Shown piece after piece: positions 31,422-51,418 of a stretch of 64,000 bases of DNA. Position 1 is the first letter of the stretch, and each line of letters begins with the position of its first letter. The stretch comes from Bacillota bacterium (lineage in GTDB: Bacteria > Bacillota > UBA994 > UBA5500). The DNA is taken from NCBI GenBank assembly GCA_023436245.1, contig JAEZJZ010000020.1:29433-93432 (forward strand), read 5' to 3'. The notes under the pieces were generated by a model. That model ran no database searches. It was given only the letters and a program-made list of their open reading frames with translations, and had not been told where the DNA came from. The translations under genes and the position numbers were made by a program.

Positions 31422-31745
31422 CTCCTTGCCTAACCTCTGATGGATTGTTCTACAGCGGGGGCGGGATTACCTTGGTGGGAACTGCTCTTGCGACGGCTGG
31501 TCTACCAATTAGGGCAAGTTACTCAACCGCCTTACATGTTCGCCACGACGGCTGATCCCAGGAGAACAGAAAAGCAGCCCGCACGCGAGCTGCCCTGTAC
31601 ATTCTACGTCGATGCGTTGAGGATGCGCGAATAAAGCCTGATAAGTGGTTCCAAGGTACCGTTGTGAGCGACAGCTCCTGGCGGTCCGTAATCCCCAACT
31701 TGTTGGGGAAAATATCCTCTGGCTCAGAAAAGTACTCATCCATGA

Positions 31746-31991
31746 TTAGGACCTCGAGTACTTAGCCTTGTACTTCAGCACTAACTCGTCAGCCGAAGCC
31801 TTGCCTGAGAGAATCAATCTACCGTCCCTGAGCGCACTCTCTGGCACAACGAAGCCCTCCATACGGGAGTTGAACAAAGCCGACTTAATGGCATAGCTCT
31901 GGCGTTTTGACGAAACTGCGCGCATCATGAAACACCCCCACAAGCTGATTATGCCATATTCTGTGTCCCTTAACACTGGCGTAACTCGCAT
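31746..31991 (-). CDS. Hypothetical small protein downstream of jetD
   Basis: Open frame with alternative starts: ATG 31991 (after GAGGT) or ATG 31928 (after GGGGGTG). No recognised motif. Confidence 0.3.
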   Translation of the reverse strand: MRVTPVLRDTEYGIISLWGCFMMRAVSSKRQSYAIKSALFNSRMEGFVVPESALRDGRLILSGKASADELVLKYKAKYSRS

Positions 31992-32091
31992 GGCGACCTC
32001 ATAATCCTGACCCTGACACAGGCAGTGCATGACTCTCCTTCATATGGTCTGGACAAGGACGGGAAGACAATTCTATGAACTGGCCTTCGTC

Positions 32092-33417
32092 TCACCTCGT
32101 CTGCAAGTCCTGCAGCAGAAGGGGCAGCAGGCGCTCTTGGTAGCCAGCCCGGCGCTCTGTCTGCATGCGCTCGCAGAGCGGCAGTAGGTCGGGTGAAGTC
32201 ACCCGCTCCAGTTGCTTCAGCCGCTGTGCAGAGATAATCACGTCAGATAGCGACGCGGTATAGTCGTCGACGCCAAATCGCCAGGGCAGAAACTGCTGGT
32301 CGTAGCGATGGCGGAGCCGTTCTGCCATCAGCAGCCCTTCCGGGTCATGGTCACCGGAATAGTGGATGGTCATGCCAGCTGCGGCCAGCTTGTCCAGCAG
32401 CAAGTAGCTGGCCAGCTGGAACTGGCCATGGGTGCAGACCAGCGGAGGCACTGTGCCAGGCAGGCCGTCCAGGAGGTCGGAAAAGACACCTGGGTTCTCG
32501 ACCACGAACACCCGGTCAGACCACCCTGGTGCAGCGACCACGCGAGTGAGCTTGGCCAGTTCGCGCACGGGCACGTTCAGCACCGCACCCTCGGTCAACG
32601 CTGCCTGCCAGGAGCCCAGCGGACCCACCGCGTTCTCAGCCACCAGCCCGCAGCAGATCACGAAGTTCATCACATCATCGCGGACAATGCCGAAGGCGTC
32701 AAGAACCAGGTTCCGCTCTGCCGTATCCACTGCAGAGCCTACCTGCCTCTGCTCAGATTGCATCAGGAGGAAGCTGAGCGCCTGCTGCAAATAGCGACCT
32801 CGAGCGAGGCCCTGGTCAAAGGCATGAGGGTCTCCGGTGAGCTCTGCCGCCCAGACCGGCAACCTCTTCACGGTGCCAGCGTCGCTCGGGAGCTGGCTGA
32901 GCGCGAGCAACACGGCTTGCAGATCAGCCTGAAGCTGATGCGGATCGTCCTTGTAGGCGGCATGGATGCTGCGCACAGCTGCCGGATTGTCCTCCACCTG
33001 CTGCAGCCAATCGCGGCAGCGTGGATGCGGGAAGCGCTCCTTTAGCTCGGTGAAAAAGTGCGCCTTTGCCGCCGCAAAACTCTCACCTGCCGCGGCTCTC
33101 GACTGCATGGACTCGCCGGTAACGGCGCCGAACAGCTCCACCAAGTCCAGTCCGCCAAAACGCGTGCGGGCCACCGCTTGCTGGAACTCCGCCAGGCCGA
33201 TTATGGCCTCACTCCGACCGGAAAAGTCGCGCCCTAGCACTCCGGAGAGGGCAGCCCGCTCCGACTCGTTCAGGTCTTGCAGGCGGATGCTGCCGCCCAC
33301 CCGTCCCAGGCGGCGGTAGCGTTCGGCCATGGCCGGCATCAGCCGGGCAAAGCCAGGTCCGGAGAAGTAGTCTATTGCCTGTCGCCACAGGCGCTCATTC
33401 CCGGACAAGCGCCTCAC
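32092..33417 (-). CDS. jetD: Wadjet JetD-like protein (TIGR02679 / DUF2399-type, Toprim-containing)
   Basis: Fourth gene of a four-gene operon. C-terminal Toprim-like motifs VFVVENPGVF and YSGDHDPEGLLMAERL. GTG start 33417 overlaps the jetC end by 23 nt. Size 441 aa. Confidence 0.65.
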   Translation of the reverse strand: MRRLSGNERLWRQAIDYFSGPGFARLMPAMAERYRRLGRVGGSIRLQDLNESERAALSGVLGRDFSGRSEAIIGLAEFQQAVARTRFGGLDLVELFGAVTGESMQSRAAAGESFAAAKAHFFTELKERFPHPRCRDWLQQVEDNPAAVRSIHAAYKDDPHQLQADLQAVLLALSQLPSDAGTVKRLPVWAAELTGDPHAFDQGLARGRYLQQALSFLLMQSEQRQVGSAVDTAERNLVLDAFGIVRDDVMNFVICCGLVAENAVGPLGSWQAALTEGAVLNVPVRELAKLTRVVAAPGWSDRVFVVENPGVFSDLLDGLPGTVPPLVCTHGQFQLASYLLLDKLAAAGMTIHYSGDHDPEGLLMAERLRHRYDQQFLPWRFGVDDYTASLSDVIISAQRLKQLERVTSPDLLPLCERMQTERRAGYQERLLPLLLQDLQTR

Positions 33418-36400
33418 CCCCCGCCGTCAGCTGCAGCTGCCGCACCGTCCCATCCCAAAGATAAGGCACCACCGTGACGCACGGCGCGTTCTTCGGCCGC
33501 ACCAGTTCACTGATGGCCAAGCGACCTGCCGTATCATAGTCGCCCCACAGCCCCTGCGAGTTGATGATATAGCAGAGTTCCAGCTGTTGCATCAGTGCAA
33601 ACATGTCGCGAATGTTGGTTTCGTCCACGCCAGCGAAGGCTTCGTCCAGGGTGATCAGGCGAGGAGCACTGTCAGACGCGTCCTGGTAACGCGAGTAGGC
33701 AGCGGAGAAAAGCGGAATGTACATGGCCATCGCCTTTTCGCCGCCACTAAAGGTGAAGAAGACCCGATCAGTCAACTCGCGCCGCTGCTCGCCTTCCTTG
33801 CGGAAGTAGAGCTTGAAGTCGAACCAGAGCCGGTAATCCAGCATCCTTTGGATGACGATCTGCAAGGTTTCGCCCTGCTGGCGCTCGGCCAACTCGACTC
33901 TGGCCCGTTCAATCTGCGAGCGGAAGTGCGCAGCAATGCGCTCAGAGTCCGCCGGCTTGAGCAGGACAGGGTCCATCTGCAGCAACTCCACCAACTCCTT
34001 AGTGTCCAGCTCGTCCTCGTGTTCCGCTGTGCGGGGCTTCCAGGCCAAGGAGAAGGTCAGACCACTGGAGGTATCGCGTTCCTCCATCAGCCGGCTGATC
34101 TTCTGCACCCAGGCATCTGCCCGATTGATTCGCTGCCGAATCATCTCGCCCACGCTGTGCACGATGATCTCCTCATATAGCTCCCGGTCCTTGGCCGCGA
34201 GCAACTGTTGCTGCTCCAGGCGGTCGCGCTGCAGCGCCCCGAGCACCTGAAAGATGTCAGTCGTTCGCCCTTGATGCTCCAGCACCAGCGACAAGCGCTG
34301 ATTCTGCTCCCGCAACGTCTGCCACCAACTGAAGACTAGTTCATCCGTTGCTGCCTCCGCGGGCAGTTGCAGCTCGCGGGCCAGCGCGTTCAGGGTCGGT
34401 CGGTAATCGGTGAGCAAACCCTGTTCCTTATTGAAGGCTTCGTTCAGTCGGAAGAGGATGCGCCCGGCGTCGGTCTGCAGCAGTTGGCCCATCTCCTTGG
34501 TGATGAGCCGCGCCAGTTCCAGCGGGCTGGCGTCATCAGGCAGTCTGTACCTGTCCAGAGTAGGTTCAGCGCTGAAGATCTGCTGCCAGCCGGCCTGCAC
34601 TGCATGGGCCGCTCGCAAACGGCCCTTCACGACAGCCGAATCAGCGTTACCCCGCAGAGTCTCGCCCTCCAGCGTGGCAATCTGGGCGCTGACCTGCTCT
34701 CGTAGGTCGGGCAACGACCGCAGACGAGCCACGACTTGACTGATGCGTGCCCGAATCTCGGCGGCGCCCATCTCCAACAGCCGCCGCTCACTGGCCCGAA
34801 TCTCCTCAGCTATCTGCCGCTGGCGCGCCGCCAGCACATTCAGTTCACCCTGCAACTCGTCGACGTCGGCCCGCGCTGCCTGCAGGTCAAGCTGCAGGCG
34901 CTGCAGCAGTGCCTGCGTGTGCTGCCAGTCGCGATCCAGCAGTTGCAGCCGGTGCAGCTCGGATCGGTAGTTTCGCATCGCCTGAAGGGCCGCCGTCAGC
35001 CCAAGCTCGGTCGCTTCCAAGTTGAGCCCCAATAAGGCCCGCTGCAACTGATTGCGTGTCTGCAGGAAACGCTGTTCGGCCAAGAGCAGCGACTGGAGCA
35101 GCCGTGCTGCCTCACTCTGACGCACGCGCAGCTCTTCGGCCACCCGGCGCAGGCTATCCCAGTGTTGCTCCAAAGCGGTCAGGGCCGGGCGACGACGGTA
35201 TTCTTCCGCCGCCTGATCCTGACAAGTTAGGACGGCCCGCAACTCGGCGGCAACCCGTTCGCGCTCCGCCTGCAGGACAGCGAGCTCGGCGCCCAGTTGC
35301 TGCAGCATCTGCTCCCGATATCTCTGGCGGGCTTCACGGCCGATGAACCGGGACAGGCTGCGCGGCGGCGCCTGCCCGGTGAGCAGTGCAATCCGATAGC
35401 GTCCATCCATATCCAGAACGATCGCACCGGGATCGTTCTCTGGGCTGCTCCAGAGGATACTGCGCAGCACACTGTCAATCGCTGCGCCATCCACCTGTGC
35501 GCTGGGCACCGGCTGCAGGACATCTGCCAGTGTGTGGCTGAAGAACTGTGGATGAGGGATGATCACCTTGTCATAGCCATTGACGGCCGCCAGGTATTGC
35601 TCGGGCACAATCAGTGCATCCAGCAGCCCGGCCTCACAGATGGCCGCCTCCACCCGTTCCCGCTGCTCCGGGGTTACGTCATCGCGAAACTCCACTGCCG
35701 CGTAGAATGGCAGGTGCGGCACCTCGGCGGCGACCAGTGCCTGCCGGGCCGCCTCCGTTTCCGGATGACGCTCGGGCTCCGGCTCCACTCGTTCGCGCCA
35801 GCACCGAATCTCCTCACGCTTGGCGGCAATGCCCTGGTCCTGCTGCGCCATGCGCCCCTTGATCTCAGCCACCTCGGCAGTACTCTGCTCGCGATAGCGA
35901 CTCCATGCCTCGTCAATCGGCTCCAACACAGCACTCGGCAGGTGCGGCTCGTAGATGTCCATCACCCGCTGCGCCACCCGCAACTGTTCTTCGCGGGTAA
36001 GCTGCAGATGTGCGAGCCCCCCCCACCAACCGTCCAGACTCTGTAGGTAATCTTCCTTCAACTGATCCATGTCCGAAATCAGCTGCTTCTGCTCGCGCTC
36101 CTTGTCGTCATAGGCCCGGCTGGCTGTCGCATGAGCTTTCTCAGCCTCCGCCAGTTGCTCCTCTGCCCGGGCATGCTGGCGGACAGCGGTCAGCCCCACC
36201 TCCAGCTTCTCCAGGTGTTCCGCAGCCGCTTGCTCCCAGAGCACGAAGTCATGCTTGCCGCTGGCACGCTCTCGGCGCCAATGCTGCAGCGCATCGCGGT
36301 GCTCAGAAAAAGCGGCTTCTTCGGCTAAATCGCCCAGGTCCTCCGCCTTCTGCTCGAGCCGGCGTTCCAGGTCCTCTGCCCGCTCCTGCTGCTGCCGCAG

Positions 36401-37537
36401 TGAACGCTCGGTTTCGCGCTCCTTGCGTTGCTTCAGTTCAAGGCCCGACTGCTTCTTGCTCTGCTCTGCCTGTCGCTCGCGCAACTCCTGCTCCAATTGC
36501 TGGTGGCGGCGCTCGACGGCGAAGACGTCGTGTTCCTGCAGCTGTTGCTGTTCGCTCTCCAACGCCGACTGCTCTTCCCTCAGATCTTCCCGTGACTGCT
36601 GCAACTGCGTAAGCTGGGCCCGCTGGGACTGCAGCCGATCGCGCAGATCCTGCTCCTGCTGCTCGAAGCCGTGGCAGCGCTGATCAGCCTCCAGCAGGTG
36701 CTTGGCCAACAGCGCCAACTGCCAGCGGTTATAGGTGTCGTAGACACCGGACAGGCGCTCCATGGCCTGCTCGTCCCGCTGCAACTGCTCCAGCTGCTGT
36801 TTGATCTGATCCATGTTCTCAATGGTCTCAGAGAGCGGGCGCAGCTCATCTTCCGAAAGCGGCGGCAGGCTGGAGTTCAAGATTTCATAGATGACGGTGG
36901 GCTTGAAGTCACGCGAAAGCTTGGGGCTGCGCAGCTGAATCAGCAGCTTGATCAAGTCCTCGTAAGCACCCTGGTCCCTGAAGCCAAAGATATACCGATT
37001 CACCAGTTCGGCGTAATTATGCCTGGTTTCCGCTAGCGCGCCGCCGCCCTGCAGGCGGTTGCTCAACTCCTTGCGCGAAAGCGGCACAATCTCTGCGTTA
37101 CCGGTCTCCAGATTAGTCTCTAGCTTATGCAGTTGAAAGCTCTCCCCGATGCGGCGGTTGTCGGTGATCACGAAACCCCAGAACTCCAGCGAGGCATGGC
37201 GGCGCGCCCGCAGCCCGATGCCGCAGGTGAGGTAGCGCTCGCTCTGCTGCCGTTTGAACTCCAGCCAGAGGTAACCAGTGCGTTCCTCCTTGTCACAGAC
37301 CTCGCCCAGCAGATAATCGTCCATGCGCCGGGCGCGGGAGCCAAAGGGGTCGAGGCGATCGGGGCTGGTCTGGCCGTCCAAGAGCACAGGGATAAGGCTC
37401 TGCATGGTCACGGACTTGCCCGATCCATTGCTGCCCCGAAGCAACAGCTTGCCATCGGCAAAAGCAAACTCCTGTTGATCGTAATACCAAAAGTTCAGGA
37501 AGCCAGCCCGACAGGGCTGTAGACGATCTGTTGTCAT
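33395..37537 (-). CDS. jetC: Wadjet JetC-like SMC-family ATPase (TIGR02680-type)
   Basis: 1380 aa. N-terminus MTTDRLQPCRAGFLNFWYYDQQEFAFADGKLLLRGSNGSGKSVT (Walker A). About 1000 aa of Q/E/R/L-rich coiled coil. C-terminus FSGGEKAMAMYIPLFSAAYSRY (signature-like) and ITLDEAFAGVDETNI (Walker B). ATG 37537 is preceded by GGAGGGGTTGGAGGA and forms ATGA with the jetB stop. Confidence 0.75.
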   Translation of the reverse strand: MTTDRLQPCRAGFLNFWYYDQQEFAFADGKLLLRGSNGSGKSVTMQSLIPVLLDGQTSPDRLDPFGSRARRMDDYLLGEVCDKEERTGYLWLEFKRQQSERYLTCGIGLRARRHASLEFWGFVITDNRRIGESFQLHKLETNLETGNAEIVPLSRKELSNRLQGGGALAETRHNYAELVNRYIFGFRDQGAYEDLIKLLIQLRSPKLSRDFKPTVIYEILNSSLPPLSEDELRPLSETIENMDQIKQQLEQLQRDEQAMERLSGVYDTYNRWQLALLAKHLLEADQRCHGFEQQEQDLRDRLQSQRAQLTQLQQSREDLREEQSALESEQQQLQEHDVFAVERRHQQLEQELRERQAEQSKKQSGLELKQRKERETERSLRQQQERAEDLERRLEQKAEDLGDLAEEAAFSEHRDALQHWRRERASGKHDFVLWEQAAAEHLEKLEVGLTAVRQHARAEEQLAEAEKAHATASRAYDDKEREQKQLISDMDQLKEDYLQSLDGWWGGLAHLQLTREEQLRVAQRVMDIYEPHLPSAVLEPIDEAWSRYREQSTAEVAEIKGRMAQQDQGIAAKREEIRCWRERVEPEPERHPETEAARQALVAAEVPHLPFYAAVEFRDDVTPEQRERVEAAICEAGLLDALIVPEQYLAAVNGYDKVIIPHPQFFSHTLADVLQPVPSAQVDGAAIDSVLRSILWSSPENDPGAIVLDMDGRYRIALLTGQAPPRSLSRFIGREARQRYREQMLQQLGAELAVLQAERERVAAELRAVLTCQDQAAEEYRRRPALTALEQHWDSLRRVAEELRVRQSEAARLLQSLLLAEQRFLQTRNQLQRALLGLNLEATELGLTAALQAMRNYRSELHRLQLLDRDWQHTQALLQRLQLDLQAARADVDELQGELNVLAARQRQIAEEIRASERRLLEMGAAEIRARISQVVARLRSLPDLREQVSAQIATLEGETLRGNADSAVVKGRLRAAHAVQAGWQQIFSAEPTLDRYRLPDDASPLELARLITKEMGQLLQTDAGRILFRLNEAFNKEQGLLTDYRPTLNALARELQLPAEAATDELVFSWWQTLREQNQRLSLVLEHQGRTTDIFQVLGALQRDRLEQQQLLAAKDRELYEEIIVHSVGEMIRQRINRADAWVQKISRLMEERDTSSGLTFSLAWKPRTAEHEDELDTKELVELLQMDPVLLKPADSERIAAHFRSQIERARVELAERQQGETLQIVIQRMLDYRLWFDFKLYFRKEGEQRRELTDRVFFTFSGGEKAMAMYIPLFSAAYSRYQDASDSAPRLITLDEAFAGVDETNIRDMFALMQQLELCYIINSQGLWGDYDTAGRLAISELVRPKNAPCVTVVPYLWDGTVRQLQLTAGGEALVRE

Positions 37538-38715
37538 TCCTCCAACCCCTCCTCCGGCCCCGCAAAGTCCGCTGGATAGCTGCCGCTGAATCTGGCCAGG
37601 GCCGAACGCAGGCAAACCGTCCCGGTGCCCGGCTCCACGGCAGCCAACTGCCAATCCAGCAACAGATCGAGCAAGTCTCGCGCCACTTCGTTTAGGTCCT
37701 TCTCGCGGTATTCTTTGGACCAGCCGCGGGCATAACGTTGGCGGCACTCCTGCACCCAGGCCAGATAGCTGGCTTCTGGCAGGCAAAGGCTGCCGTCATA
37801 CTGCAGTGGAATGTCCTCCACCAGATAGTGCTCGCGGGCCAGCCCGGCAAACTGCACCGCAATGTCCTCGATCACCCGACTGCCGGGAAAGGGCCGATAG
37901 CGCGCGAAGCGCTCGGGCAGGGTGAGCATGGAGGCGTTGCGAAAGAGATCGAATTGAAAGTCGAAGTTCTGCTCCAGATCCTCGCGCAGGCGCGAGCGAT
38001 AATTGCGCAAGTAAAGGAAATCCGGATCCTGGTCGTCGCTGCGGTGGATGACCGGGCAGAAGAGCAGTTGGCGATAGATGCGGTGGCGACGGCGGACGGT
38101 GGGATCAGCCGCCAGATCGCTCTCCAAGAGCTGCACTGGATCGTCCAGGGACTGCAAACCATGCGGCAAGTTGCGCAGAAAGTAGCGAACCACCGGAGTC
38201 ACCTCGTAGAGCACCTCGGCCTCACTGCGGCTGAACTGGTCCACCTCGCCATCCACCACCAGCAGCAGGCCAAACTCGCTGGCCACGCGCATCACCCGCA
38301 CCAGCGACTTGCGATGCTCATAGTTGGTCCAATCCAGCCTGCCTGTTTCCGGGTAGAGCGACTGCAACTCCTCGCAGAGTTGGGACAGCAAGAACTGTTC
38401 TTCCACCGCCAAACCCTCCAAGAAGGCCAGCAGGCAGCAGAAGATGGTGTAGTCACGCGTGCTGGTGAAATCCGGGATGCCCATCCAGGGCAGCGGAACA
38501 GCCGGCACCTTCTCCAGCTTGGCGAAGTGCCGGTGCACAACCAGACGCAAACCTGCCTTGTCCCAAAACCACTTGCGCAGCGTTTCCTCCCGCCGACGCA
38601 CCAACTGGTATTTTTCCGGCTCCCGCCGACGCAGAATCCAGAACTGCTGCAACAGATCGGCGGCCGCCTCTTTGGCCAGCTCGTCAAAGCCAGCATTGCT
38701 GATCTGTGATTCCAT
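37534..38715 (-). CDS. jetB: Wadjet JetB-like protein (TIGR02678 / DUF2398-type)
   Basis: 393 aa, second in the operon. Start MESQISNAG after GGGAGTGAGG. The 12-nt overlap with jetA and the ATGA overlap with jetC indicate translational coupling. Assignment rests on size, order and context only. Confidence 0.55.
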   Translation of the reverse strand: MESQISNAGFDELAKEAAADLLQQFWILRRREPEKYQLVRRREETLRKWFWDKAGLRLVVHRHFAKLEKVPAVPLPWMGIPDFTSTRDYTIFCCLLAFLEGLAVEEQFLLSQLCEELQSLYPETGRLDWTNYEHRKSLVRVMRVASEFGLLLVVDGEVDQFSRSEAEVLYEVTPVVRYFLRNLPHGLQSLDDPVQLLESDLAADPTVRRRHRIYRQLLFCPVIHRSDDQDPDFLYLRNYRSRLREDLEQNFDFQFDLFRNASMLTLPERFARYRPFPGSRVIEDIAVQFAGLAREHYLVEDIPLQYDGSLCLPEASYLAWVQECRQRYARGWSKEYREKDLNEVARDLLDLLLDWQLAAVEPGTGTVCLRSALARFSGSYPADFAGPEEGLEE

Positions 38716-38723
38716 TGGGGGCC

Positions 38724-40193
38724 TCACTCCCAAAACTCCAAAGTATAATCCGGCATCAGCAGGCTGCCATCGCAGGCATGCAGCCAAATCTGCCCTGGCT
38801 GCACTTGCAGGCGAAAGCGGCGCCCGCTTTCCGTGCTGCCAATGCGCTCGCTGCTGGCCAGGGCGCGGGCAATCCAGCCGAGCAGCGTCTTGCGCAGCAA
38901 CGGCTCCACCACTCCCAAATCAGCCACCCGCAAGCTGCCTTGCTTGGCCAACTGCTGCAGGATGGCGGCTTCGGCGTGCTGTTCCTGCAGGTAACTGGCC
39001 AACTGCGCCGTCTTCTCCGCCGTTCGATCCATGATGGCAGTGGAGCGACTCTTCTGCCGATAGGTGCGCACCCGCGGCTCCAGCGGCAGGGCCAGGGCAG
39101 GCCGATCCCAGGTCTCAGCATAGATGTCTTCCGTGTCGCGCCCAGGCGCGTAGAAGTGGCGTGTATCCTGCAGGCCGAAAACACTGGCGGAGAGAATGTG
39201 AGCGTCCGCCAGCGTAGGGCAAGCGGCAAACCGCTGCGCCAACTGCAGATACTCCTGCCGACGGCTGCGCTGCTGCTGATGTCGTTCACCCAACCGCTGC
39301 ACAAACCGGGTGATGCGCCGAATAGCCTCATGCGTCTCCAACTGCAACTGATAGCGATCGCTGCTGCGTCCCGGCTCGCCAAGAAACCAAGAGCGGAAGT
39401 TGGTCCACTGGCGACGGTAGCTGGCGAGCAACTGGTCACGCGCTGGGCGTTCATCCAACCGCGGAATGGAGAGGGCATAGTCCGCCAGTCGCTCGCAGAT
39501 CAGGTCCAGCCGCTGCTGGTCGACACCAGCGAGCAGAGACTCGATCTTCACAGCAGCCCGCTGCAAGGCACTGACGAAATTGCGCAGATAATCACCCAAG
39601 GAGTCCCTGTAGACCAGAAAGGCGTCGACATTCATCAAAGCCTCGCTGCGCTCGCTGCTCAGGTAGGCCAGGTAGCTGGTGGCGTTGGTGGTCAGGCGAC
39701 GGAAAGCCGCAAACAGATCAGTCCACCGACCCTGCAGTTCCTCAGCCGTGACCTGATTGCCCAAAGCGAGAAATCGCTGCAGCGTCTCCAGCAGGCGATC
39801 GACATCGGTGCGCTCCAGCGAGCCACCGAAGGATGACCCCATCTGTTCCAGATGCATGACCATGCGCTCAATCTCGATCGTGTAGGCAGTCGCCTGGTAG
39901 CGAAAACGCTTCTTGCGGAACTCCTCGACGCTGGCCACCCGGCGGGTGTCCTGCCGCGCCACCAGATTGCCCCATTCCACCAGTTGGTTCAGGTCCTGCT
40001 CTAGTTCGTTCTCGCCGTACTGAGCGAAATACTGATTCAGAGCGAACTCACGCAGCAACTCCTCGGGATAGAGGAAATGCCGCATACTCTCGTGCTGCAA
40101 GTAGAAGTGACGTAAGATCGACCGATAACGCCAGGCATTGCCGGCCGTCAGGTAACTGGCTTCAGTCAGCGGCCGCAGTAACCGTTCATCCAT
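38724..40193 (-). CDS. jetA: Wadjet JetA-like protein (TIGR02677 / DUF2397-type)
   Basis: 489 aa, first gene of the operon. RBS GAGGGAG. No catalytic motif. Assignment rests on size, order and context only. Confidence 0.55.
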   Translation of the reverse strand: MDERLLRPLTEASYLTAGNAWRYRSILRHFYLQHESMRHFLYPEELLREFALNQYFAQYGENELEQDLNQLVEWGNLVARQDTRRVASVEEFRKKRFRYQATAYTIEIERMVMHLEQMGSSFGGSLERTDVDRLLETLQRFLALGNQVTAEELQGRWTDLFAAFRRLTTNATSYLAYLSSERSEALMNVDAFLVYRDSLGDYLRNFVSALQRAAVKIESLLAGVDQQRLDLICERLADYALSIPRLDERPARDQLLASYRRQWTNFRSWFLGEPGRSSDRYQLQLETHEAIRRITRFVQRLGERHQQQRSRRQEYLQLAQRFAACPTLADAHILSASVFGLQDTRHFYAPGRDTEDIYAETWDRPALALPLEPRVRTYRQKSRSTAIMDRTAEKTAQLASYLQEQHAEAAILQQLAKQGSLRVADLGVVEPLLRKTLLGWIARALASSERIGSTESGRRFRLQVQPGQIWLHACDGSLLMPDYTLEFWE

Positions 40194-40340
40194 AGCATCT
40201 GCTCCCTCATCGTTGCGCCCGAGGGCGCATTACCGTCAGAATTCGTTACAGAAGCCGCTCACCCCTGCCTAAGTGATAGCAACTTGCCATCTCAGATGGC
40301 TTCCTCTCCGTGGCTGACTGTTCTAGCCGGGGTCCAATGA

Positions 40341-40385: not shown

Positions 40386-40715
40386 CTACTCTTGTTCAAC
40401 GTCTGTGCCAAATAGGGAGTGCAGCCAGTTCTGCCGTCCATGCAGCACTCGAGCGATGACGATTTGCTCGTCCATCACTCGATAGAACACCAAATACGGA
40501 TTGACAACAATCCGCCTATATCCCGGCAAAGCACCGGGAGCGTCTTCAGGCGGGACGACCGCACCCAGTTCCGGGAACTCGGCCAATCCCTTGATTCCCT
40601 CGTAAATGCGCCGCCTAAGTCGTTCCGCCGCCTCTCTATTGTCGACAACGATGTAGGAAAAGAGGCTATCGACATCAAAATAGGCGGACTCCGAGAGAAC
40701 GATCCGCTTAGGCAT
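40386..40715 (-). CDS. parE: ParE/RelE-family toxin
   Basis: MPKRIVLSESAYFDVDSLFSYI...NREAAERLRRRIYEGIKGLAEFPELG...YRRIVVNPYLVFYRV.DEQIVIARVLHGRQ is the typical ParE pattern. Confidence 0.7.
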   Translation of the reverse strand: MPKRIVLSESAYFDVDSLFSYIVVDNREAAERLRRRIYEGIKGLAEFPELGAVVPPEDAPGALPGYRRIVVNPYLVFYRVMDEQIVIARVLHGRQNWLHSLFGTDVEQE

Positions 40716-40998
40716 GATCGATCCTCCGTTTGATATCCTCCATGGTCTGCTCAAAGTCCCGCATAGGGGTCCCTTTGGAGATTTCCAGATCCACCTCCGC
40801 CAGCATTTGCCCTAAGCGATGTCTGGCCATCAGTTTCTGAAAGGCCTCGTGACTCATCACGACCAAATCTGCCTCTCCGTTCTTGGTGACGACCACTGGC
40901 TCTCCAGTCTCATGACAAAACCTGGAGAAAGAACTATAGTCGTGCCGAATCGCCGTGGAAGGCTTAATGGCCGTGATTATCTGTACCGGACGACTCAT
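40708..40998 (-). CDS. Phd/YefM-family antitoxin
   Basis: FSRFCHETGEPVVVTKNGEADLVVMSHEAFQKL. Overlaps the toxin start by 8 nt. RBS AAGGAGG. Confidence 0.65.
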   Translation of the reverse strand: MSRPVQIITAIKPSTAIRHDYSSFSRFCHETGEPVVVTKNGEADLVVMSHEAFQKLMARHRLGQMLAEVDLEISKGTPMRDFEQTMEDIKRRIDHA

Positions 40999-44889: not shown

Positions 44890-45771
44890 CTAGGAGAGTT
44901 CACCGTCGACCACGCGCTTGGCCATGTGGTCATCAATGATGCGGTGTTTGTTGTGGGCGCCATAGATCAGGCAATGCGTGCAAAGCTTGTTGATCATCCT
45001 GGCCGAGCCGGAGGAGTAGCGGTAGATCTCGTCCAGCGCGCCCTCGGTGAAGATGTCACGTTCAGCTCCAGCATAAGCCATGTGGCGCTCAATGTAGGCA
45101 GCAACTTCTGCGCGATCATAGTGGTGTAGCTTGCACTGCAGGTCGATGCGCTGGCGAATGGCCGCGTAGGCCTGTAGCACCAGGCGTTCCCAGAGTTCGC
45201 TTTGCCCGACCAGGATGAGAGCCATTGGACTCTCGGCATCCATGCGGAAGTTCAGCAGGAACCTCACTTCTTCGAACATCTCCCGATCCAGGAGATGGGC
45301 CTCGTCGATGACCACGACCGGCTGCAGGTGATGAATCCCTTTCATCAGCTCTATCTCGCGGTGTAGCTGACGTTTGGCATCGCCTCGGTAGAATTTGGCC
45401 TCGCAACCTAACTGCTCCAGCAGCCCCTTGTAGAAGTGGCGGGGCGTGAGCTTGGAGTCGGCTAGATAGAGCAGTTTGAAGCGAGACTGGTCCAAGGTTT
45501 CGGAGAAGCAGCGGATGGTGGTTGTCTTGCCGGTACCGGGGTCACCACTGACCACCGCAAACCATTGCCGCTCGGCTGCATAGGTGAGCCGCCCCAGCGT
45601 CTCCTCAAGCTGTACTGATCGGTAGAGTTTCTGGGTTGGAATGTCCCGCGAGAATGGAGAATGCGACAGGCCATAGAATGACTCAAACATGACTATCCTC
45701 CCGCACCAACCGGTAAGAGACGGCTGGAGCCACCCGTTCCTGTCTCTCTTGGCTCTTGGCGCCGGCGGCAA
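44890..45771 (-). CDS. istB: IS21-family helper ATPase IstB
   Basis: VSGDPGTGKTT (Walker A), VVIDEAHLLD (Walker B), AAA+ fold. Confidence 0.85.
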   Translation of the reverse strand: MPPAPRAKRDRNGWLQPSLTGWCGRIVMFESFYGLSHSPFSRDIPTQKLYRSVQLEETLGRLTYAAERQWFAVVSGDPGTGKTTTIRCFSETLDQSRFKLLYLADSKLTPRHFYKGLLEQLGCEAKFYRGDAKRQLHREIELMKGIHHLQPVVVIDEAHLLDREMFEEVRFLLNFRMDAESPMALILVGQSELWERLVLQAYAAIRQRIDLQCKLHHYDRAEVAAYIERHMAYAGAERDIFTEGALDEIYRYSSGSARMINKLCTHCLIYGAHNKHRIIDDHMAKRVVDGELS

Positions 45772-47023
45772 TGAGCAGGCGTGAGGAATCTGCTATGCGC
45801 GTGGTCAGGTGATCCGGCAGAGGTGGGCGATCGCCTACTTTAGCACCGATGACCAGTTCCCTAACCCGCCAGGGTTTGTGGCCAGAGTACTCAATCGTCA
45901 GTTCGGTGGTATCTTGCGGATCGTAGACTACGTCAACCTTGCAGCCGAGGAAACTGACGCCGACCTCATACTTACGGCCGAGGAAGCTGATGCAGCCGGC
46001 CTTATCCACTTTACGTTGCTCGCAATGCAGAAAGGCGTCTGCCAGTAGTTCCGGCTCCACAAACCGGAGGGGCTTGCTGTCGCTCCGGTAGGCTTCTTCC
46101 GGGCTTTGGCCTAGGGCAGAGTGAGGTTTGTGCTGGTAGCATTCCGAGAGCCAGACCTGAAACAGTTCGTTCAACTGGTCTAGGGTCTTGGGCCTCTGCA
46201 AAGATGCCTCTTTCAGGAACGAGTCAACGACTCTGTTGAATCGCTCCACCTTGCCTTTTCCCTCGGGGGAATACGGTTTGGCGTACAGCAAGCGAATGCC
46301 TAGCTTAGAGCAGGTTCGCTGCATCCAGGTGGTGCGGTATTGCTTGCCGTTGTCGAAGTAGACGGCTTCCGGTACTCCGTACTTCTGAATCGCCCGGCGG
46401 AAGCAGTCTTCTACCACCGCCTGATCCATAACAGGATAGAACTCTCCGTGCAGCACCAATCGAGTGGCATCGTCCAGGAAGGTGACCAGGTAGACCTGCT
46501 TGCTGGTGCCGTTAGGACCGATTGGCAGGTATGGTCCGTACTTCAGATCAGACTGCCAAAGACGATTGCGATGGGGTTGTTGCCACCGCCGCGTAGCCAC
46601 TCCCGTTTCGGCATACATTCGCATCTGGCGGGTGCTGTAACCTCTCTCGGTCAGTTTCTCTTGTAGGGTGCTGCGCCGGATCTGACCTTTCTCAATCAGG
46701 CCTTCCCACTCCATGATCTGTATTAGCTGGCTGACGCTCCGGCTGGGCACTTCCCGCCGTAGCATAATGGCCTGTTCCAAGACCTCTTTCGGAATGGCGC
46801 TGGACGCCTGCTGGCTCTTGGCTCTCGGTTGCAGACCAATGAAGCCCTCTTGGCGGTACCTGGTCAGGTAGCGCCTGAGGGTACGGTCCGAGATGCCTGT
46901 TTCTTGACAGATGCGGGTTCGTAACTCCCTAGCTTTGGCCGAATCGAGTTCCCCGGACAGGAGTGGAGCCAACAACTGCACTCGCTTGGTAGCAATCTCT
47001 TCCGCTTTTTGCTTGTCTTTCAT
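45683..47023 (-). CDS. istA: IS21-family transposase IstA (HTH + DDE)
   Basis: N-terminal HTH ...ICQETGISDRTLRRYLTRYRQEG. DDE region DLKYGPYLP...VYLVTFLDDATR...DNGKQY. Start chosen at ATG 47023 after GGGAGAG. The ORF is open to the GTG at 47149. Confidence 0.8.
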   Translation of the reverse strand: MKDKQKAEEIATKRVQLLAPLLSGELDSAKARELRTRICQETGISDRTLRRYLTRYRQEGFIGLQPRAKSQQASSAIPKEVLEQAIMLRREVPSRSVSQLIQIMEWEGLIEKGQIRRSTLQEKLTERGYSTRQMRMYAETGVATRRWQQPHRNRLWQSDLKYGPYLPIGPNGTSKQVYLVTFLDDATRLVLHGEFYPVMDQAVVEDCFRRAIQKYGVPEAVYFDNGKQYRTTWMQRTCSKLGIRLLYAKPYSPEGKGKVERFNRVVDSFLKEASLQRPKTLDQLNELFQVWLSECYQHKPHSALGQSPEEAYRSDSKPLRFVEPELLADAFLHCEQRKVDKAGCISFLGRKYEVGVSFLGCKVDVVYDPQDTTELTIEYSGHKPWRVRELVIGAKVGDRPPLPDHLTTRIADSSRLLIAAGAKSQERQERVAPAVSYRLVREDSHV

Positions 47024-47058
47024 GCTCATCTCTCCCTTGCTTGACCTCGTTTTCGAGT

Positions 47059-47601
47059 CTAGCAAGGGGAGTGTTCGGGCAGCCATGCAGAACGGGTATG
47101 TACCCAAAGATTTGCGTTCACGATCGGTCGGACAATCTGCTTCAGCCACCCGCTGGCCGATCCGACCAACTGTTTAAGCCTCTGGTGTGCCGACTGTGCA
47201 GGGCTGGCCGGGCTCTCCACAGGGCCTGTCTCATACCGAACGGCGATAGAGGCCAGGCATCCGAGCCAATAGGTCACGTTCTCCGTGACCCAACGCTTCC
47301 AACGGTTGACGGTGGCCTCATCTGCTGGGGCTGTGTTTTCCTCCCGGCTAGACAAGATCTGTTCCACGCACTCCGCTCTGTAGCGTTTGTATGGCACTAA
47401 GAAGTCCGGCAGCTCATGATGGATTCGTCCGCAGCTCTGACACCGCAGCCGGCGGATGTACGCTGCATTCTTCTCGCCTTCATCGTCGATGAACCCACGA
47501 GATCGACTACCAATAACCTTCATTTCGCCGTCGCAGCAAGGACACGGGATCTTCTCTGCACACCTAATAAAACACGCCGGGAGACTTCTCAACCAGCTCA
47601 T
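47059..47601 (-). CDS. Zn-ribbon protein (CPCC...C..C) immediately upstream of istA, DUF6431-like IS21 accessory ORF
   Basis: CPCCDGEMKVIGSRSRGF...RRLRCQSCGRIHHELPDFLVPYKRY. The position, co-oriented directly upstream of istA, recurs in IS21-family elements. Confidence 0.5.
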   Translation of the reverse strand: MSWLRSLPACFIRCAEKIPCPCCDGEMKVIGSRSRGFIDDEGEKNAAYIRRLRCQSCGRIHHELPDFLVPYKRYRAECVEQILSSREENTAPADEATVNRWKRWVTENVTYWLGCLASIAVRYETGPVESPASPAQSAHQRLKQLVGSASGWLKQIVRPIVNANLWVHTRSAWLPEHSPC

Positions 47602-48563: not shown

Positions 48564-50198
48564 TTATTCCGTTATAATCTCCGGCCCATCATACCACTTC
48601 GGAGTCTTATAGTGTTTGGCCATTTGAGGACGATATTTAGCCATTTGCTCACTCAGGAATCCTACCGGTGGGGCAACTTCCTTACCTTCCGGAACGAAGA
48701 ACTTGCCGTTTTCAGGATCATATGCGTATTTTCCTGCCCTACCAAATATGAACGGTAGGTAAGATTCAAACTGGGCTTCCCCGTTATCATCCAAGATTAG
48801 GTTCTTGCCATCATTCTTGTAGTTGTAGAAGTGCTCTGCCTGCATCTTTCTGAAATCTTCCCTAATCTCAGCTACTTTGTCGGGATTGGTCAACAGTTCT
48901 ATGGCACTTACCGCCATTGCTTGGGCACCCGCGATCAGCCCTTTATGGGCAACAGTAGAACCGGTTACCGCAGTAGTAGTCCAATGATGGCCGATGGCTC
49001 CCGGAGCAGAAGTGGGGAACCTAACACTTGTAAGAGGCACAACTAAGGAAACCTCGCCTATGTCAGAAGATCCTCCGCCCACAAATACCTCAGGGGATCC
49101 CTTTGGCTTATCCTCAATTGCCGAATCATCGGGAAGGCCCTTTTCTTCTGCACCTGCAGATCTCTGCAATGCCTTGATGAACTCGTGTTCATCCTCAGTC
49201 CACTCAGGCATACCCACCTTTTTGATGTTCTCTTGCACCATGTGGGCTAGAGTCTCATTTCTATAGCACTGATGGATTGCAGTGTACGGGGTAATCTCCA
49301 TTTGGGTATCTGTGGCAAGGGCTGCGGCTTTGGCACAATTTAGCACTCTCTCGAAGTCAGACTTAATCAGTTTGTCCGAGTTTCTCACGAAATACCAGGT
49401 GGTTGCTCGATCCGGAACTACGTTAGGGCCTTCTCCACCCTCGGTCATCACATAATGCAATCTGGATGTGTAGTGCAAATGCTCACGCAGGAACTCGGTA
49501 CTCACGTTCATTATTTGCACAGCATCTAAAGCTGATCTGCCGACCCAGGGAGCTCCGGCAGAGTGAGCGGTTGTTCCGCGGAAGGTAACGGAGAAGGACC
49601 AGTTGGTATTACTACCTACTCCGTAAGATGCACCAAAGCCATCTCCCCCATGGTTATCAATTACAACATCTACGCCGTCAAACACGCCGGCGTAAACCAT
49701 GAAAGGACGGCTAATTACGGTTTCTTCAGCAGGGCTACCAAACATCTTAATGGTCCCGGTAAATCCCCCGTCTTCCATAGCTTTCTTGACTGCTACAACC
49801 GTACCGGCAGCCGCAGTTCCCATAGTATTATGAGTACAACCATGACCCGGCGCCATGGCTCCTTTTATTTCGGTTATGGGGGCGTGGGTAGGGTTTCCTG
49901 CCTCTTGGGATAGCATTGGTAGTGCATCTAACTCGCCTAATACGCCAATGGTTGGTCCAGGGCCATTGGAAAAAGTGGCAACGAAGGCAGTTGGCATTCC
50001 GCCTACCCCTTTTTCAATTGTGAAGCCTTCCTTTTCCAGGTAGTTTATCAGTAGGTTCGCGGTGTTGTATTCCTCTAAACCTAACTCCGCATAGGACCAA
50101 ATGGCATCATTAATCTCCGCCAACATTTCCCGAGTCTCACTTTTTTGCAGAAAATCAATGGCAACCTGTTGGTTCTTATCAAATGCTTCTCTATTCAA
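48564..50198 (-). CDS. M20-family amidohydrolase/peptidase, low GC
   Basis: M20 metal-binding regions (...GHGCTHN..., ...GSPAEE...). 544 aa. Codon usage and GC (about 45%) differ from neighbours. Confidence 0.65.
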   Translation of the reverse strand: MNREAFDKNQQVAIDFLQKSETREMLAEINDAIWSYAELGLEEYNTANLLINYLEKEGFTIEKGVGGMPTAFVATFSNGPGPTIGVLGELDALPMLSQEAGNPTHAPITEIKGAMAPGHGCTHNTMGTAAAGTVVAVKKAMEDGGFTGTIKMFGSPAEETVISRPFMVYAGVFDGVDVVIDNHGGDGFGASYGVGSNTNWSFSVTFRGTTAHSAGAPWVGRSALDAVQIMNVSTEFLREHLHYTSRLHYVMTEGGEGPNVVPDRATTWYFVRNSDKLIKSDFERVLNCAKAAALATDTQMEITPYTAIHQCYRNETLAHMVQENIKKVGMPEWTEDEHEFIKALQRSAGAEEKGLPDDSAIEDKPKGSPEVFVGGGSSDIGEVSLVVPLTSVRFPTSAPGAIGHHWTTTAVTGSTVAHKGLIAGAQAMAVSAIELLTNPDKVAEIREDFRKMQAEHFYNYKNDGKNLILDDNGEAQFESYLPFIFGRAGKYAYDPENGKFFVPEGKEVAPPVGFLSEQMAKYRPQMAKHYKTPKWYDGPEIITE

Positions 50199-50403
50199 CG
50201 TTTTCTCCTCCTTTATTTAGGCACTAATAGGAGCAGGCTACTTCCTACCTTCACCTCCACTTATTTTTGTATGCGTAATAAGCTTATCATCAGACGCTTG
50301 GGGTTTCTACAACTATCGGCAGATAATTGTGCAAAAAAATGCAGGCAGATGAAAAAGCCACCCATTGATAGATCTCATTCTATCAATAGATGGCACTATA
50401 CTT

Positions 50404-50750
50404 GGTGGAGGCGGGGGGATTCGAACCCACCGTCCGAAGGCCAGCCAGCCAGAGCTTCTCCGAGCGCAGTCCATGCTTTGAATTTCGCTCGGTGACGCCC
50501 CCGTGGACAGGGTCGTTACTTCGCTAGCCCGTTAATTTCCCGACCGATACCAGGCGCTCTCGGTCAGTAGACTACTGTTCATGACGCCCGCATCTGAACC
50601 CCAGTAGACACAGTTTCAGGCAGACGGCGGCCTTAGGCCGCGATTGCTAAATTGTTGTTAGCTATTGTTGTTTTCCCTGTTTTACGGGTACCAGGATCCC
50701 CGGCTCGCTACTCCAACCCACAGAACCCCCGTCGAAACCATGTCGCCCCC
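50404..50750 (-). ncRNA. ssrA: tmRNA (ssrA)
   Basis: Minus strand 5'-GGGGGCGACAUGGUUUCGACGGGGG ... GGAUUCGAACCCCCCGCCUCCACCA-3'. 7-bp acceptor pairing between the ends. Internal tag ORF ...GCU AAC AAC AAU UUA GCA AUC GCG GCC UAA encodes (A)NNNLAIAA*. Confidence 0.9.
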
Positions 50751-50849: not shown

Positions 50850-51329
50850 CTAGTATTCGCCCTTTTCCCGCTGCCGCATGGCCTGGGCAATTTCGCGATC
50901 GGCATCGCGGTTCGCTTCCGCGTCGCGCTTGTCGTAAAGCTTCTTGCCTTTGGCCAGCCCGATTTCGGCTTTGATCTTGCCTTCCTTCAGGTACAGCCGG
51001 GTGGCAACCAGGGTGTAACCTTTGGCCTGGGTGAGGCCGAGGAGTCGCATCACTTCCCGCTTGTGCATCAGCAGCACGCGCGGGCGCAGCGGATCATGAT
51101 TGAAGCGGTTGCCTTGTTCATAAGGGCTGATATGAACATTATATAAGAACAGCTGGCCGTCATCAACCCGGGCAAAACTGTCACGCATGTTGGCGCGGCC
51201 AGCGCGAATTGACTTCACCTCAGTGCCGCGCAAGGCAACTCCTGCCTCGTAGGTCTCCTCGATGAAGTAATCATGGCGCGCTCTGCGGTTCTCGACCAGT
51301 GTCTTGCTACCTTGTTCTTTCATGATCAT
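50850..51329 (-). CDS. smpB: SsrA-binding protein SmpB
   Basis: ...[30 protein letters not shown]...LLMHKRE...[12 protein letters not shown]. Confidence 0.9.
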
Positions 51330-51418
51330 TTCCCCATAAGAAAAATCTAGCCCGACTTGCGCTGCAAGCGGGCTGAAGGTCACTATTCATTATATCAAGT
51401 TATCTATGGCGGGTCAAA

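What the first reader, a model, noticed from the sequence alone, without database searches (positions are those of the whole stretch)
32092..40193. Four-gene SMC-like operon matching Wadjet/JetABCD (TIGR02677-02680 neighbourhood)
Four co-oriented, translationally coupled genes of 489, 393, 1380 and 441 aa. Overlaps: jetA/jetB 12 nt; jetB stop and jetC start share ATGA; jetC/jetD 23 nt with a GTG start. The third gene is an SMC-like ATPase. Its N-terminal Walker A is LLLRGSNGSGKS, about 1 kb is Q/E/R/L coiled coil, and the C-terminus carries FSGGEK...LDEAFAGVD. The fourth gene ends in a Toprim-like VFVVENPGVF...YSGDHDPEG. Sizes, order and motifs match the Wadjet anti-plasmid system (JetA-D); the JetD Toprim is the plasmid-cleaving nuclease in characterised Wadjet systems. 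Wadjet is a described system, so this is a recognition call rather than a new family. A high-GC defence operon inside a patchwork island is still worth confirming and subtyping.
Basis: partly seen in the sequence, partly recalled or inferred. Interest (0 to 1): 0.7.

Follow-up and report, generated by a model that had tools for sequence, protein, structure and literature searches.

The report
Intact type II Wadjet anti-plasmid operon
This is an ordinary, apparently functional copy of the already-characterised type II Wadjet (JetABCD) system, an SMC-type DNA motor with a nuclease that destroys small circular plasmids, sitting in the chromosome of an uncultured Clostridia-like bacterium.

Summary
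Four co-oriented minus-strand genes of 489, 393, 1380 and 441 aa occupy 40193..32092 with no internal stops. One detail is wrong: jetA and jetB do not overlap by 12 nt but are separated by 8 nt.

The interpretation also holds, and can be made more precise:
- All four proteins score far above the curated cut-offs of TIGR02677, TIGR02678, TIGR02680 and TIGR02679.
- The best PADLOC models are JetA2, JetB2, JetC2 and JetD2, which makes this Wadjet type II.
- JetA, JetB and JetC align end to end with the solved Neobacillus vireti type II complex (PDB 9qe0/9qe1).
- The JetC Walker A, signature, Walker B and D-loop motifs match nvJetC.
- A confident JetD model matches MksG, topoisomerase VI-A, P. aeruginosa JetD and Spo11.
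- JetD E307 is kept in 163 of 164 diverse family members, and D356 and D358 in all 164.

A 75%-identical copy in an uncultured Clostridia MAG has the same gene junctions, unrelated flanks and dN/dS of 0.06-0.12. The operon is chromosomal, about 10 kb beyond rnr-smpB-ssrA. Its GC content equals that of the housekeeping genes in the window.

Verdict: a new member of a known, biochemically characterised kind. Interest is low.

The parts
38724..40193 (-). jetA: kleisin subunit (489 aa, ATG start, AGGGAG Shine-Dalgarno-like sequence upstream)
   Evidence: TIGR02677 381 bits. PF09660 DUF2397 449 bits. PADLOC JetA2 E 1e-170. Aligns at residues 5-487 with nvJetA 9qe0_E residues 8-495, E 1.7e-115.
37534..38715 (-). 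jetB: tandem-KITE subunit (393 aa). The ATG lies 8 nt after the jetA stop, and the stop overlaps the jetC start (ATGA).
   Evidence: TIGR02678 279 bits. PF09661 DUF2398 345 bits. PADLOC JetB2 E 6e-135. Aligns at residues 10-385 with nvJetB 9qe0_D residues 9-383 of 389, E 8.9e-101.
33395..37537 (-). jetC: SMC-like ABC ATPase (1380 aa) with N- and C-terminal head halves, two long coiled-coil arms, and a hinge at about residues 600-720
   Evidence: TIGR02680 950 bits. PADLOC JetC2 1500 bits. Aligns at residues 8-1367 with nvJetC 9qe0_A residues 9-1355, E 1e-265. Head motifs match nvJetC. Composition profile.
37412..37435 (-). JetC Walker A / P-loop GSNGSGKS (residues 35-42)
   Evidence: nvJetC has GTNGSGKS at the aligned position, so the G-x-x-G-x-G-K-S consensus is kept.
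33734..33751 (-). JetC ABC signature motif FSGGEK (residues 1263-1268)
   Evidence: Identical in nvJetC.
33623..33658 (-). JetC Walker B plus D-loop LITLDEAFAGVD (residues 1294-1305)
   Evidence: nvJetC has IISLDEAFAGVD at the aligned position. PF13558 SbcC_Walker_B 84 bits.
32092..33417 (-). jetD: nuclease subunit (441 aa, GTG start inside the end of jetC, 23-nt overlap) with an N-terminal CAP-like domain (DUF3323) and a C-terminal Toprim domain (DUF2399)
   Evidence: TIGR02679 256 bits. PF11796 plus PF09664. PADLOC JetD2 E 5e-133. AF2 model pLDDT 90.7. Foldseek hits MksG 8b7f, Topo VI-A 1d3y, PaJetD 7til and Spo11 8uru.
32494..32505 (-). JetD Toprim glutamate motif VVEN (E307), at the C-terminal end of the first Toprim strand
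   Evidence: E307 is conserved in 163 of 164 family members. Strand 302-306 is followed by helix 309-317 in the model.
32335..32358 (-). JetD Toprim DxD motif SGDHDPEG (D356, D358), after the third Toprim strand
   Evidence: D356 and D358 are conserved in 164 of 164 members, as are Y353 and G361. Strand 350-354 is followed by helix 359-375.

Best explanation
The four genes encode a complete, intact type II Wadjet (JetABCD, also called MksBEFG or EptABCD) anti-plasmid system, expressed as one translationally coupled operon from the minus strand.

The mechanism below is inferred by homology to the reconstituted N. vireti type II system; it was not measured here. Two JetC SMC ATPases, one JetA kleisin and one tandem-KITE JetB form a motor unit, and two units dimerise through the N-terminus of JetA. 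The complex loads on DNA and extrudes loops using ATP. Only on a small closed circle, of up to a few tens of kb, can extrusion run to completion and stall. The stalled complex then recruits and activates the JetD dimer. JetD's Toprim metal site (E307, D356, D358) cuts both strands at a position that does not depend on sequence. Host exonucleases then degrade the linearised plasmid. The chromosome and linear DNA are spared.
For: Shown here:
- All four family models score 1.3 to 2.3 times their curated cut-offs.
- The best PADLOC models are the type II ones, JetA2 to JetD2. The type I models are weak: JetC1 reaches at most 62 bits over the Walker B region only, and JetD1 reaches 25 bits.
- JetA, JetB and JetC align over their full lengths with PDB 9qe0/9qe1, at E 1.7e-115, 8.9e-101 and 1e-265.
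- The JetC ATPase motifs are intact and match nvJetC.
- The JetD model has pLDDT 90.7. Its top structural matches are MksG, topoisomerase VI-A, P. aeruginosa JetD and Spo11, all at probability 1.00.
- E307 is kept in 163, and D356 and D358 in all 164, of the diverse JetD family members aligned. The family holds 2007 clusters at 50% identity.
- None of the four genes has an internal stop.
- Against the 75%-identical operon in L001, dN/dS is 0.06-0.12 for all four genes, and the three gene junctions are the same.

From the literature:
[quoted passage not shown] It needs JetABC, JetD, ATP and Mn2+, and it restricts plasmids in B. subtilis (10.1101/2025.03.10.642339).
- Alanine mutants of MksG E236 and D279, the Toprim metal ligands, were predicted and reported ('in line with our hypothesis') to lose DNA cleavage (PMC10123090).
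Against: No experiment exists on this operon: expression, complex formation and plasmid restriction are all inferred.
- The simple sigma-70 scan found no convincing promoter in the 190-nt region upstream of jetA. The operon might be read through from the upstream phd/parE pair, or use a promoter the scan does not model.
- dS exceeds 1 and is therefore saturated, so the dN/dS values are approximate.
- No type II JetD structure has been solved. The mapping of E307/D356/D358 onto the MksG and Topo VI metal ligands rests on fold topology and motif position, not on a residue-level superposition.
Confidence: 0.93

Rival explanations
1. The genes encode an SbcCD/Rad50-Mre11-type or RecN-type DNA-repair ATPase with an associated nuclease, not a defence system.
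For: Pfam finds an SbcC/RAD50-like Walker B domain at JetC residues 1231-1317 (84 bits). It also finds sub-threshold SMC_N and AAA_23 matches.
Against: - That Pfam domain is the generic C-terminal head half shared by all SMC/Rad50-like ATPases.
- The full-length best match is TIGR02680 at 950 bits. The bona fide SMC models score only 17-29 bits against cut-offs of 567-729.
- No Mre11/SbcD metallophosphatase is adjacent. The neighbouring nuclease is a Toprim/Topo VI-A-fold protein.
- A kleisin (JetA) and a KITE (JetB) are present, which Rad50 and SbcC lack.
Confidence: 0.01
2. The genes encode a housekeeping MksBEF/MukBEF-like condensin that organises the chromosome. JetD would then be inactive or used for another purpose.
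For: - Wadjet and MksBEF/MukBEF are homologous.
- The operon is chromosomal, and its composition cannot be told apart from that of core genes.
- The nvJET-II paper notes that Wadjet may also extrude loops on the chromosome.
Against: - JetD is present and under purifying selection (dN/dS 0.12). It keeps every invariant Toprim residue.
- In the Clostridia MAG the four-gene cassette sits in an unrelated genomic context, with homology ending within about 20 nt of the operon ends. This is typical of a mobile accessory module, not a core condensin.
Confidence: 0.03
3. The operon is a decaying or silent relic of Wadjet that no longer works.
For: - No clear promoter was found.
- The operon lies in a variable region that carries a transposase and toxin-antitoxin remnants.
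Against: - There are no frameshifts or premature stops in 8.1 kb.
- All catalytic motifs are intact.
- Shine-Dalgarno-like sequences precede jetA, jetB and jetC; the one before jetD is weak.
- The coupling junctions are conserved with a 75%-identical relative, and dN/dS is well below 1.
Confidence: 0.03

Closest known systems
Type II Wadjet of Neobacillus vireti LMG 21834 (nvJET-II; PDB 9qe0/9qe1; Roisne-Hamelin, Liu & Gruber, bioRxiv 10.1101/2025.03.10.642339)
   Same: - Same four genes in the same order.
- Similar sizes: JetA 489 vs 500 aa, JetB 393 vs 389 aa, JetC 1380 vs 1371 aa.
- End-to-end alignments with E 1e-101 to 1e-265.
- Walker A consensus, signature, Walker B and D-loop motifs match.
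- JetB has the length of a tandem KITE.
- The JetD family is the same, TIGR02679 with DUF3323+DUF2399.
   Different: - It is a divergent orthologue from a different, higher-GC (about 59%), uncultured Clostridia-like lineage.
- The coiled-coil arms are much less conserved than the heads. The two head segments together score 597 of the 888 bits of the whole protein.
- Nothing about activity, Mn2+ dependence, hinge shape or dimer geometry has been measured for this copy.
Type I Wadjet (E. coli GF4-3 ecJET-I; P. aeruginosa PA14 JetABCD; C. glutamicum MksBEFG)
   Same: - Same logic: kleisin, KITE, SMC and a Toprim nuclease.
- The JetD model matches MksG (8b7f) and PaJetD (7til) at Foldseek probability 1.00.
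- The E...DxD metal site is shared.
   Different: - Type I PADLOC models hit only weakly. JetC1 reaches at most 62 bits over the Walker B region, and JetD1 reaches 25 bits.
- Type I has a single-KITE JetB of about 242 aa acting as a homodimer, a shorter JetC, a channel-containing hinge, a different aCAP, and works with Mg2+ alone.
MukBEF / MksBEF bacterial condensins
   Same: They share the SMC-kleisin-KITE architecture. The nvJET-II resting-state geometry and compact hinge resemble MukBEF.
   Different: The condensins have no nuclease subunit and act in chromosome organisation rather than defence. This operon carries an intact JetD.
Topoisomerase VI subunit A / Spo11
   Same: The JetD model shares the CAP-plus-Toprim fold (1d3y E 1e-5; 8uru E 9e-5).
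   Different: Sequence identity is 10-15%. According to the literature, JetD and MksG act as nucleases rather than religating topoisomerases and lack the 5Y-CAP catalytic tyrosine. That last feature was not tested here.

Membership tests
Wadjet (JetABCD / MksBEFG) | Co-oriented four-gene operon in the order jetA (kleisin), jetB (KITE), jetC (SMC), jetD (nuclease) | tested here: met
   The ORFs lie at 40193..32092 on the minus strand, with an 8-nt gap, an ATGA overlap and a 23-nt overlap at the three junctions. The relative L001 has the same junctions.
Wadjet (JetABCD / MksBEFG) | JetA belongs to TIGR02677 / DUF2397 | tested here: met
   381 bits against a cut-off of 166. PF09660 scores 449 bits.
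Wadjet (JetABCD / MksBEFG) | JetB belongs to TIGR02678 / DUF2398 | tested here: met
   279 bits against a cut-off of 125. PF09661 scores 345 bits.
Wadjet (JetABCD / MksBEFG) | JetC is an SMC-like ABC ATPase (TIGR02680) with intact Walker A, signature, Walker B and D-loop motifs | tested here: met
   950 bits against a cut-off of 463. The motifs are GSNGSGKS, FSGGEK and LITLDEAFAGVD, and they match nvJetC.
Wadjet (JetABCD / MksBEFG) | JetD (TIGR02679; DUF3323+DUF2399) has a Topo VI-A-like CAP-plus-Toprim fold and conserved E...DxD metal ligands | tested here: met
   256 bits against a cut-off of 196. The AF2 model has pLDDT 90.7. Foldseek matches MksG, Topo VI-A, PaJetD and Spo11. E307 is kept in 163 of 164 members, and D356 and D358 in 164 of 164.
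Wadjet (JetABCD / MksBEFG) | ATP-dependent cleavage of circular but not linear DNA, and reduced plasmid establishment in vivo | not testable with these tools
   Shown only for homologues.
Wadjet type II | Best match to the type II rather than the type I or III subunit models | tested here: met
   PADLOC gives JetA2 567 bits, JetB2 448, JetC2 1500 and JetD2 442. JetC1 reaches at most 62 bits and JetD1 25 bits.
Wadjet type II | Tandem-KITE JetB of about 390 aa with four winged-helix domains in one chain | tested here: met
   JetB is 393 aa. Residues 10-385 align with residues 9-383 of the 389-aa nvJetB, whose structure shows the tandem KITE. The fold of this copy itself was not predicted.
Wadjet type II | [quoted passage not shown] | tested here: met
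   JetC is 1380 aa and aligns with nvJetC in one ungapped-in-register stretch, 8-1367 against 9-1355. Elbow position is inferred.
Wadjet type II | Compact hinge without a central channel | not tested
   JetC exceeds the 1200-aa limit of the structure tool, and a hinge dimer cannot be modelled here. The feature is inferred from homology to 9qe0.
Wadjet type II | Mn2+ requirement for cleavage | not testable with these tools
   Reported for nvJET-II only.
SbcCD / Rad50-Mre11 | Adjacent Mre11/SbcD metallophosphatase nuclease, and no kleisin or KITE partners | tested here: not met
   The neighbours of JetC are the DUF2398 KITE and the Toprim JetD. The four operon proteins have no Metallophos domain.
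Canonical SMC / RecN | Score above the SMC_prok_A or SMC_prok_B cut-off | tested here: not met
   28.6 and 17.1 bits against cut-offs of 567 and 729.
Lamassu (LmuB SMC plus LmuA effector) | LmuB-family SMC with an LmuA effector gene | tested here: not met
   LmuB scores only 17.7 bits (E 4e-4), against 1500 bits for JetC2. No LmuA-like gene is present.

The most novel reading that the evidence does not exclude
The most novel reading not excluded concerns the flanking genes. A Phd/ParE pair lies directly upstream of jetA, and a VbhA-like antitoxin remnant lies directly downstream of jetD. If these are functionally tied to the cassette, the locus would be a composite 'TA-guarded Wadjet' module rather than a plain Wadjet operon. 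The link could be a shared transcript with phd/parE, an addiction function that stabilises the island, or a second layer of defence. Against this, the closest relative (L001) carries the four jet genes without these neighbours, so the association looks incidental.
Probability: 0.05. Interest if true: 0.35.

Novelty: new member of a known kind. Interest (0 to 1): 0.15.

Why it matters
The value is mostly bookkeeping.
- It adds a divergent, higher-GC type II Wadjet orthologue that could serve comparative or structural work on JetC arms and the JetD aCAP.
- If this lineage is ever cultured, the system predicts poor transformability with small circular plasmids. Deleting it would be a sensible domestication step.

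It opens no new question.

Tried and rejected
- JetD against PDB sequences, both as a single sequence and as a 21-sequence profile, gave only chance hits (E 0.18 and 0.41). No type II JetD structure has been solved, and type I JetD is too distant for HMMER. The link was made by fold instead.
- Island boundaries were not found. The 3' end of the tmRNA gene has no duplicate anywhere in the window, and no meaningful direct or inverted repeats flank the operon.
- The promoter and terminator scan of 31400-41400 gave nothing above the shuffled expectation, and nothing in the jetA upstream region.
- Rfam found only the tmRNA in the whole window.
- The 74-aa ORF after the VbhA-like ORF was read by eye as a Fic N-terminus. 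It has no Pfam hit, and no HPFxxGN Fic motif occurs in any frame of 31400-32100. At most it is a short remnant.
- The genome-collection scan with JetD returned a single relative, so the organism could not be named beyond 'Clostridia-like'.
- A plasmid-borne origin was considered. The closest plasmid JetC homologues are at most 43% identical, and the window carries core chromosomal genes.
- The paper on the C. cellulovorans Wadjet was checked for its subtype, without a useful answer.
Full report
**Observation.** The region 32092-40193 holds four long ORFs, all on the minus strand:
- jetA, 40193..38724, 489 aa, ATG start.
- jetB, 38715..37534, 393 aa from the ATG. The longest possible ORF starts at a TTG at 38787.
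- jetC, 37537..33395, 1380 aa from the ATG. The longest ORF has 1463 codons.
- jetD, 33417..32092, 441 aa, GTG start.

None has an internal stop. Purine-rich Shine-Dalgarno-like sequences precede jetA, jetB and jetC; the one before jetD is weak.

The reported 12-nt jetA/jetB overlap is wrong. The jetA stop is at 38726-38724 and the jetB ATG at 38715, so the two genes are separated by 8 nt.

The coiled-coil estimate of about 1 kb is too low. The helix-favouring, Q/E/R/L/A/K-rich arms run over about residues 240-600 and 720-1230, around a Pro/Gly-rich hinge at about 600-720.

**Family assignment.**
- NCBIfam places the four proteins in TIGR02677 (381 bits, cut-off 166), TIGR02678 (279, cut-off 125), TIGR02680 (950, cut-off 463) and TIGR02679 (256, cut-off 196).
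- Pfam gives DUF2397, DUF2398, an SbcC/RAD50-type Walker B domain, and DUF3323+DUF2399.
- In PADLOC the best models are JetA2 (567 bits), JetB2 (448), JetC2 (1500) and JetD2 (442). The type I models hit only the Walker B region of JetC (at most 62 bits) and JetD weakly (25 bits).

The operon is therefore a type II Wadjet. Canonical SMC models score 17-29 bits against cut-offs of 567-729. There is no SbcD-type nuclease next to JetC. The Toprim acidic residues are present.

**Link to a characterised system.** JetA, JetB and JetC each have one match among PDB sequences, the JetA, JetB and JetC chains of 9qe0/9qe1. The matches are E 1.7e-115 (5-487 vs 8-495), 8.9e-101 (10-385 vs 9-383 of 389) and 1e-265 (8-1367 vs 9-1355 of 1371).

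These entries are the cryo-EM structures of the Neobacillus vireti type II Wadjet (bioRxiv 10.1101/2025.03.10.642339). That study reports the following:
- The motor unit has JetA1B1C2 stoichiometry, and two units dimerise.
- The KITE is a tandem protein with four winged-helix domains.
- The elbow-distal coiled coil is long, and the hinge is compact and has no channel.
- It restricts plasmids in B. subtilis.

A residue-level alignment of the two head halves with nvJetC shows matching motifs:

| Motif | This JetC | nvJetC |
|---|---|---|
| Walker A | GSNGSGKS | GTNGSGKS |
| Signature | FSGGEK | FSGGEK |
| Walker B + D-loop | LITLDEAFAGVD | IISLDEAFAGVD |
| Following segment | NSQGLWGDYDT | NSQALWGDYDT |

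**JetD.** No solved structure is detectable by sequence, either with the single protein or with a 21-sequence profile. This agrees with the paper's statement that JetD was not in the cryo-EM sample.

An AlphaFold2 model built on 21 homologues is confident (mean pLDDT 90.7). Its best Foldseek matches in the PDB all have probability 1.00:
- the C. glutamicum MksG nuclease (8b7f, E 1.7e-6);
- M. jannaschii topoisomerase VI-A (1d3y, E 1e-5);
- P. aeruginosa JetD (7til, E 1.1e-5);
- M. mazei Topo VI and Spo11 (8uru).

In the model, E307 sits at the C-terminal end of strand 302-306. D356-x-D358 follows strand 350-354. These are the canonical Toprim positions, judged from general knowledge of the fold.

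In an alignment with 163 further family members of at least 380 aa, E307 is kept in 163 of 164 sequences and D356 and D358 in all 164. H198, G331, Y353, G361, Q427 and E428 are also invariant. The family is large, with 2007 clusters at 50% identity at E <= 1e-3. For MksG, the equivalent metal ligands E236 and D279 were mutated to alanine, and the authors report the outcome as in line with their prediction that cleavage would be lost (PMC10123090).

The GTG start of jetD is supported by three observations. Conservation begins at about residue 9 (A14, Y17, F18, R25 and L26 are nearly invariant). Residues 6-18 form a confident helix. The 23-nt overlap is the same in the related operon. The public gene call of 415 aa (P0001) is therefore probably 26 codons short.

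**Evolutionary evidence for function.** The window is identical to a public metagenome scaffold (ENA ERZ28596075, LEMO22-1_SAMN17062689 scaffold_240; Logan SRR13347280).

The only relative in the species-level genome collection is an uncultured Clostridia MAG (L001). Its jetABCD is 75.6% identical in DNA over 8.2 kb. The homology is confined to window 40210..32104, which is the four genes and almost nothing else, and the flanking genes are unrelated.

The three junctions are the same in L001: an 8-nt spacer, an ATGA overlap and a 23-nt overlap. dN/dS is 0.06, 0.12, 0.09 and 0.12 for jetA to jetD. dS is above 1, so these values are approximate. Together this indicates a cassette that moves as a unit and is kept under purifying selection.

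**Context.** The window is chromosomal.
- At 50.4-64 kb lie pgk, tpi, gpmI, eno, an H+-pyrophosphatase gene, rnr, smpB and the tmRNA gene.
- Below the tmRNA gene lies a heterogeneous stretch:
  - a low-GC M20-like gene, a GNAT gene and a DUF6431 gene;
  - a Mu/Tn7-type transposase with a TniB-like ATPase;
  - a DUF4424 protein and a Phd/ParE pair;
  - the jet operon;
  - a VbhA-like ORF;
  - metabolic genes.
- SLH, Cu_amine_oxidN1 and Spo0B-type kinase domains fit a Bacillota/Clostridia host.
- No repeat marks island ends.
- The jet genes have GC of 61-64% and GC3 of 75-77%, the same as eno, gpmI, rnr and the PPase gene (60-61% and 73-78%). They are not compositionally foreign. Only their immediate small neighbours are lower, at 52-54%.

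**Mechanism.** What is shown is the gene content, the intact motifs, the fold of JetD and purifying selection. What is inferred from nvJET-II and type I work is the following sequence. JetA, JetB and JetC form dimeric loop-extruding motors. Complete extrusion of a small circle produces a stalled state. That state recruits the JetD dimer, whose Toprim site cuts the DNA without sequence preference.

**Rivals.** SbcCD/RecN-type repair, a housekeeping condensin and a dead relic are each contradicted by specific results: for the first, for the second, and for the third.

**Verdict.** This is a correct recognition call, refined to subtype II. It is a new orthologue of a described and biochemically reconstituted system, with no feature that departs from the type. 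Interest is low.

Noticed in passing
window 40998..40386 (-): A type II toxin-antitoxin pair lies directly upstream of jetA and is co-oriented with it. The Phd/YefM antitoxin is at 40998..40708 (96 aa, PF02604, E 2e-10). The ParE toxin has its ORF at 40754..40386 and is called as 109 aa publicly (PF05016, E 5e-18). GC is about 52-54%, lower than the jet genes. The pair is absent next to the related operon in L001.
   Followed up: partly
window 32030..31519 (-): Two small ORFs lie directly downstream of jetD. The first, of 94 aa, has a sub-threshold VbhA antitoxin match (PF18495, E 0.005) and an S-x-x-x-E-G motif (SRMEG). The second, of 74 aa, has an N-terminus (FPNKLGITDRQEL) that looks by eye like the start of a Fic protein. 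It has no Pfam hit, and no Fic HPFxxGN motif occurs in any frame. This is possibly a degraded VbhA/Fic module.
   Followed up: partly
window 50750..50403 (-), with 51383..50850 and 54733..52592: The tmRNA gene (tag ANNNLAIAA, Rfam 176 bits) follows smpB and rnr. Everything downstream of it, to about 41 kb and beyond, is heterogeneous in content and GC. It looks like a variable region next to ssrA, but no duplicated tmRNA 3' end or integrase was found.
   Followed up: partly
window 47601..44890 (-): A transposon-like trio is present: a DUF6431 protein (47601..47059), a Mu/Tn7-type DDE transposase with HTH, rve and Mu-transpos_C domains (47149..45683), and a TniB-like AAA_22 ATPase (45771..44890). 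Its ends were not mapped.
   Followed up: no
window 19388..18660 (-): A 242-aa protein fuses a short Phd/YefM-like N-terminus to a Uma2-family putative endonuclease. It matches the PADLOC candidate defence family PDC-S03 strongly (E 8.5e-56).
   Followed up: no
window 50198..48564 (-): A 544-aa ORF with only an M20 dimerisation-domain match has markedly lower GC (48.6%; GC3 47.7%) than the rest of the window (about 58-62%). It is the most compositionally foreign gene seen here.
   Followed up: no
window 33417..33340 (-), and protein P0001: The public gene call for jetD starts at an internal ATG (415 aa). Homologue conservation and the structure model support the GTG start 26 codons upstream, inside the end of jetC.
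   Followed up: yes
JetD residues 198, 353, 427-428 (window about 32826..32824, 32361..32359, 32139..32134): Besides E307, D356 and D358, the residues H198, Y353 (immediately before SGDxD) and Q427-E428 (GYQE) are invariant in 164 type II JetD relatives. Y353 and E428 may correspond to the Toprim tyrosine (Y258) and the glutamates (E349/E351) discussed as possible nucleophiles in MksG. This correspondence was not established here.
   Followed up: no
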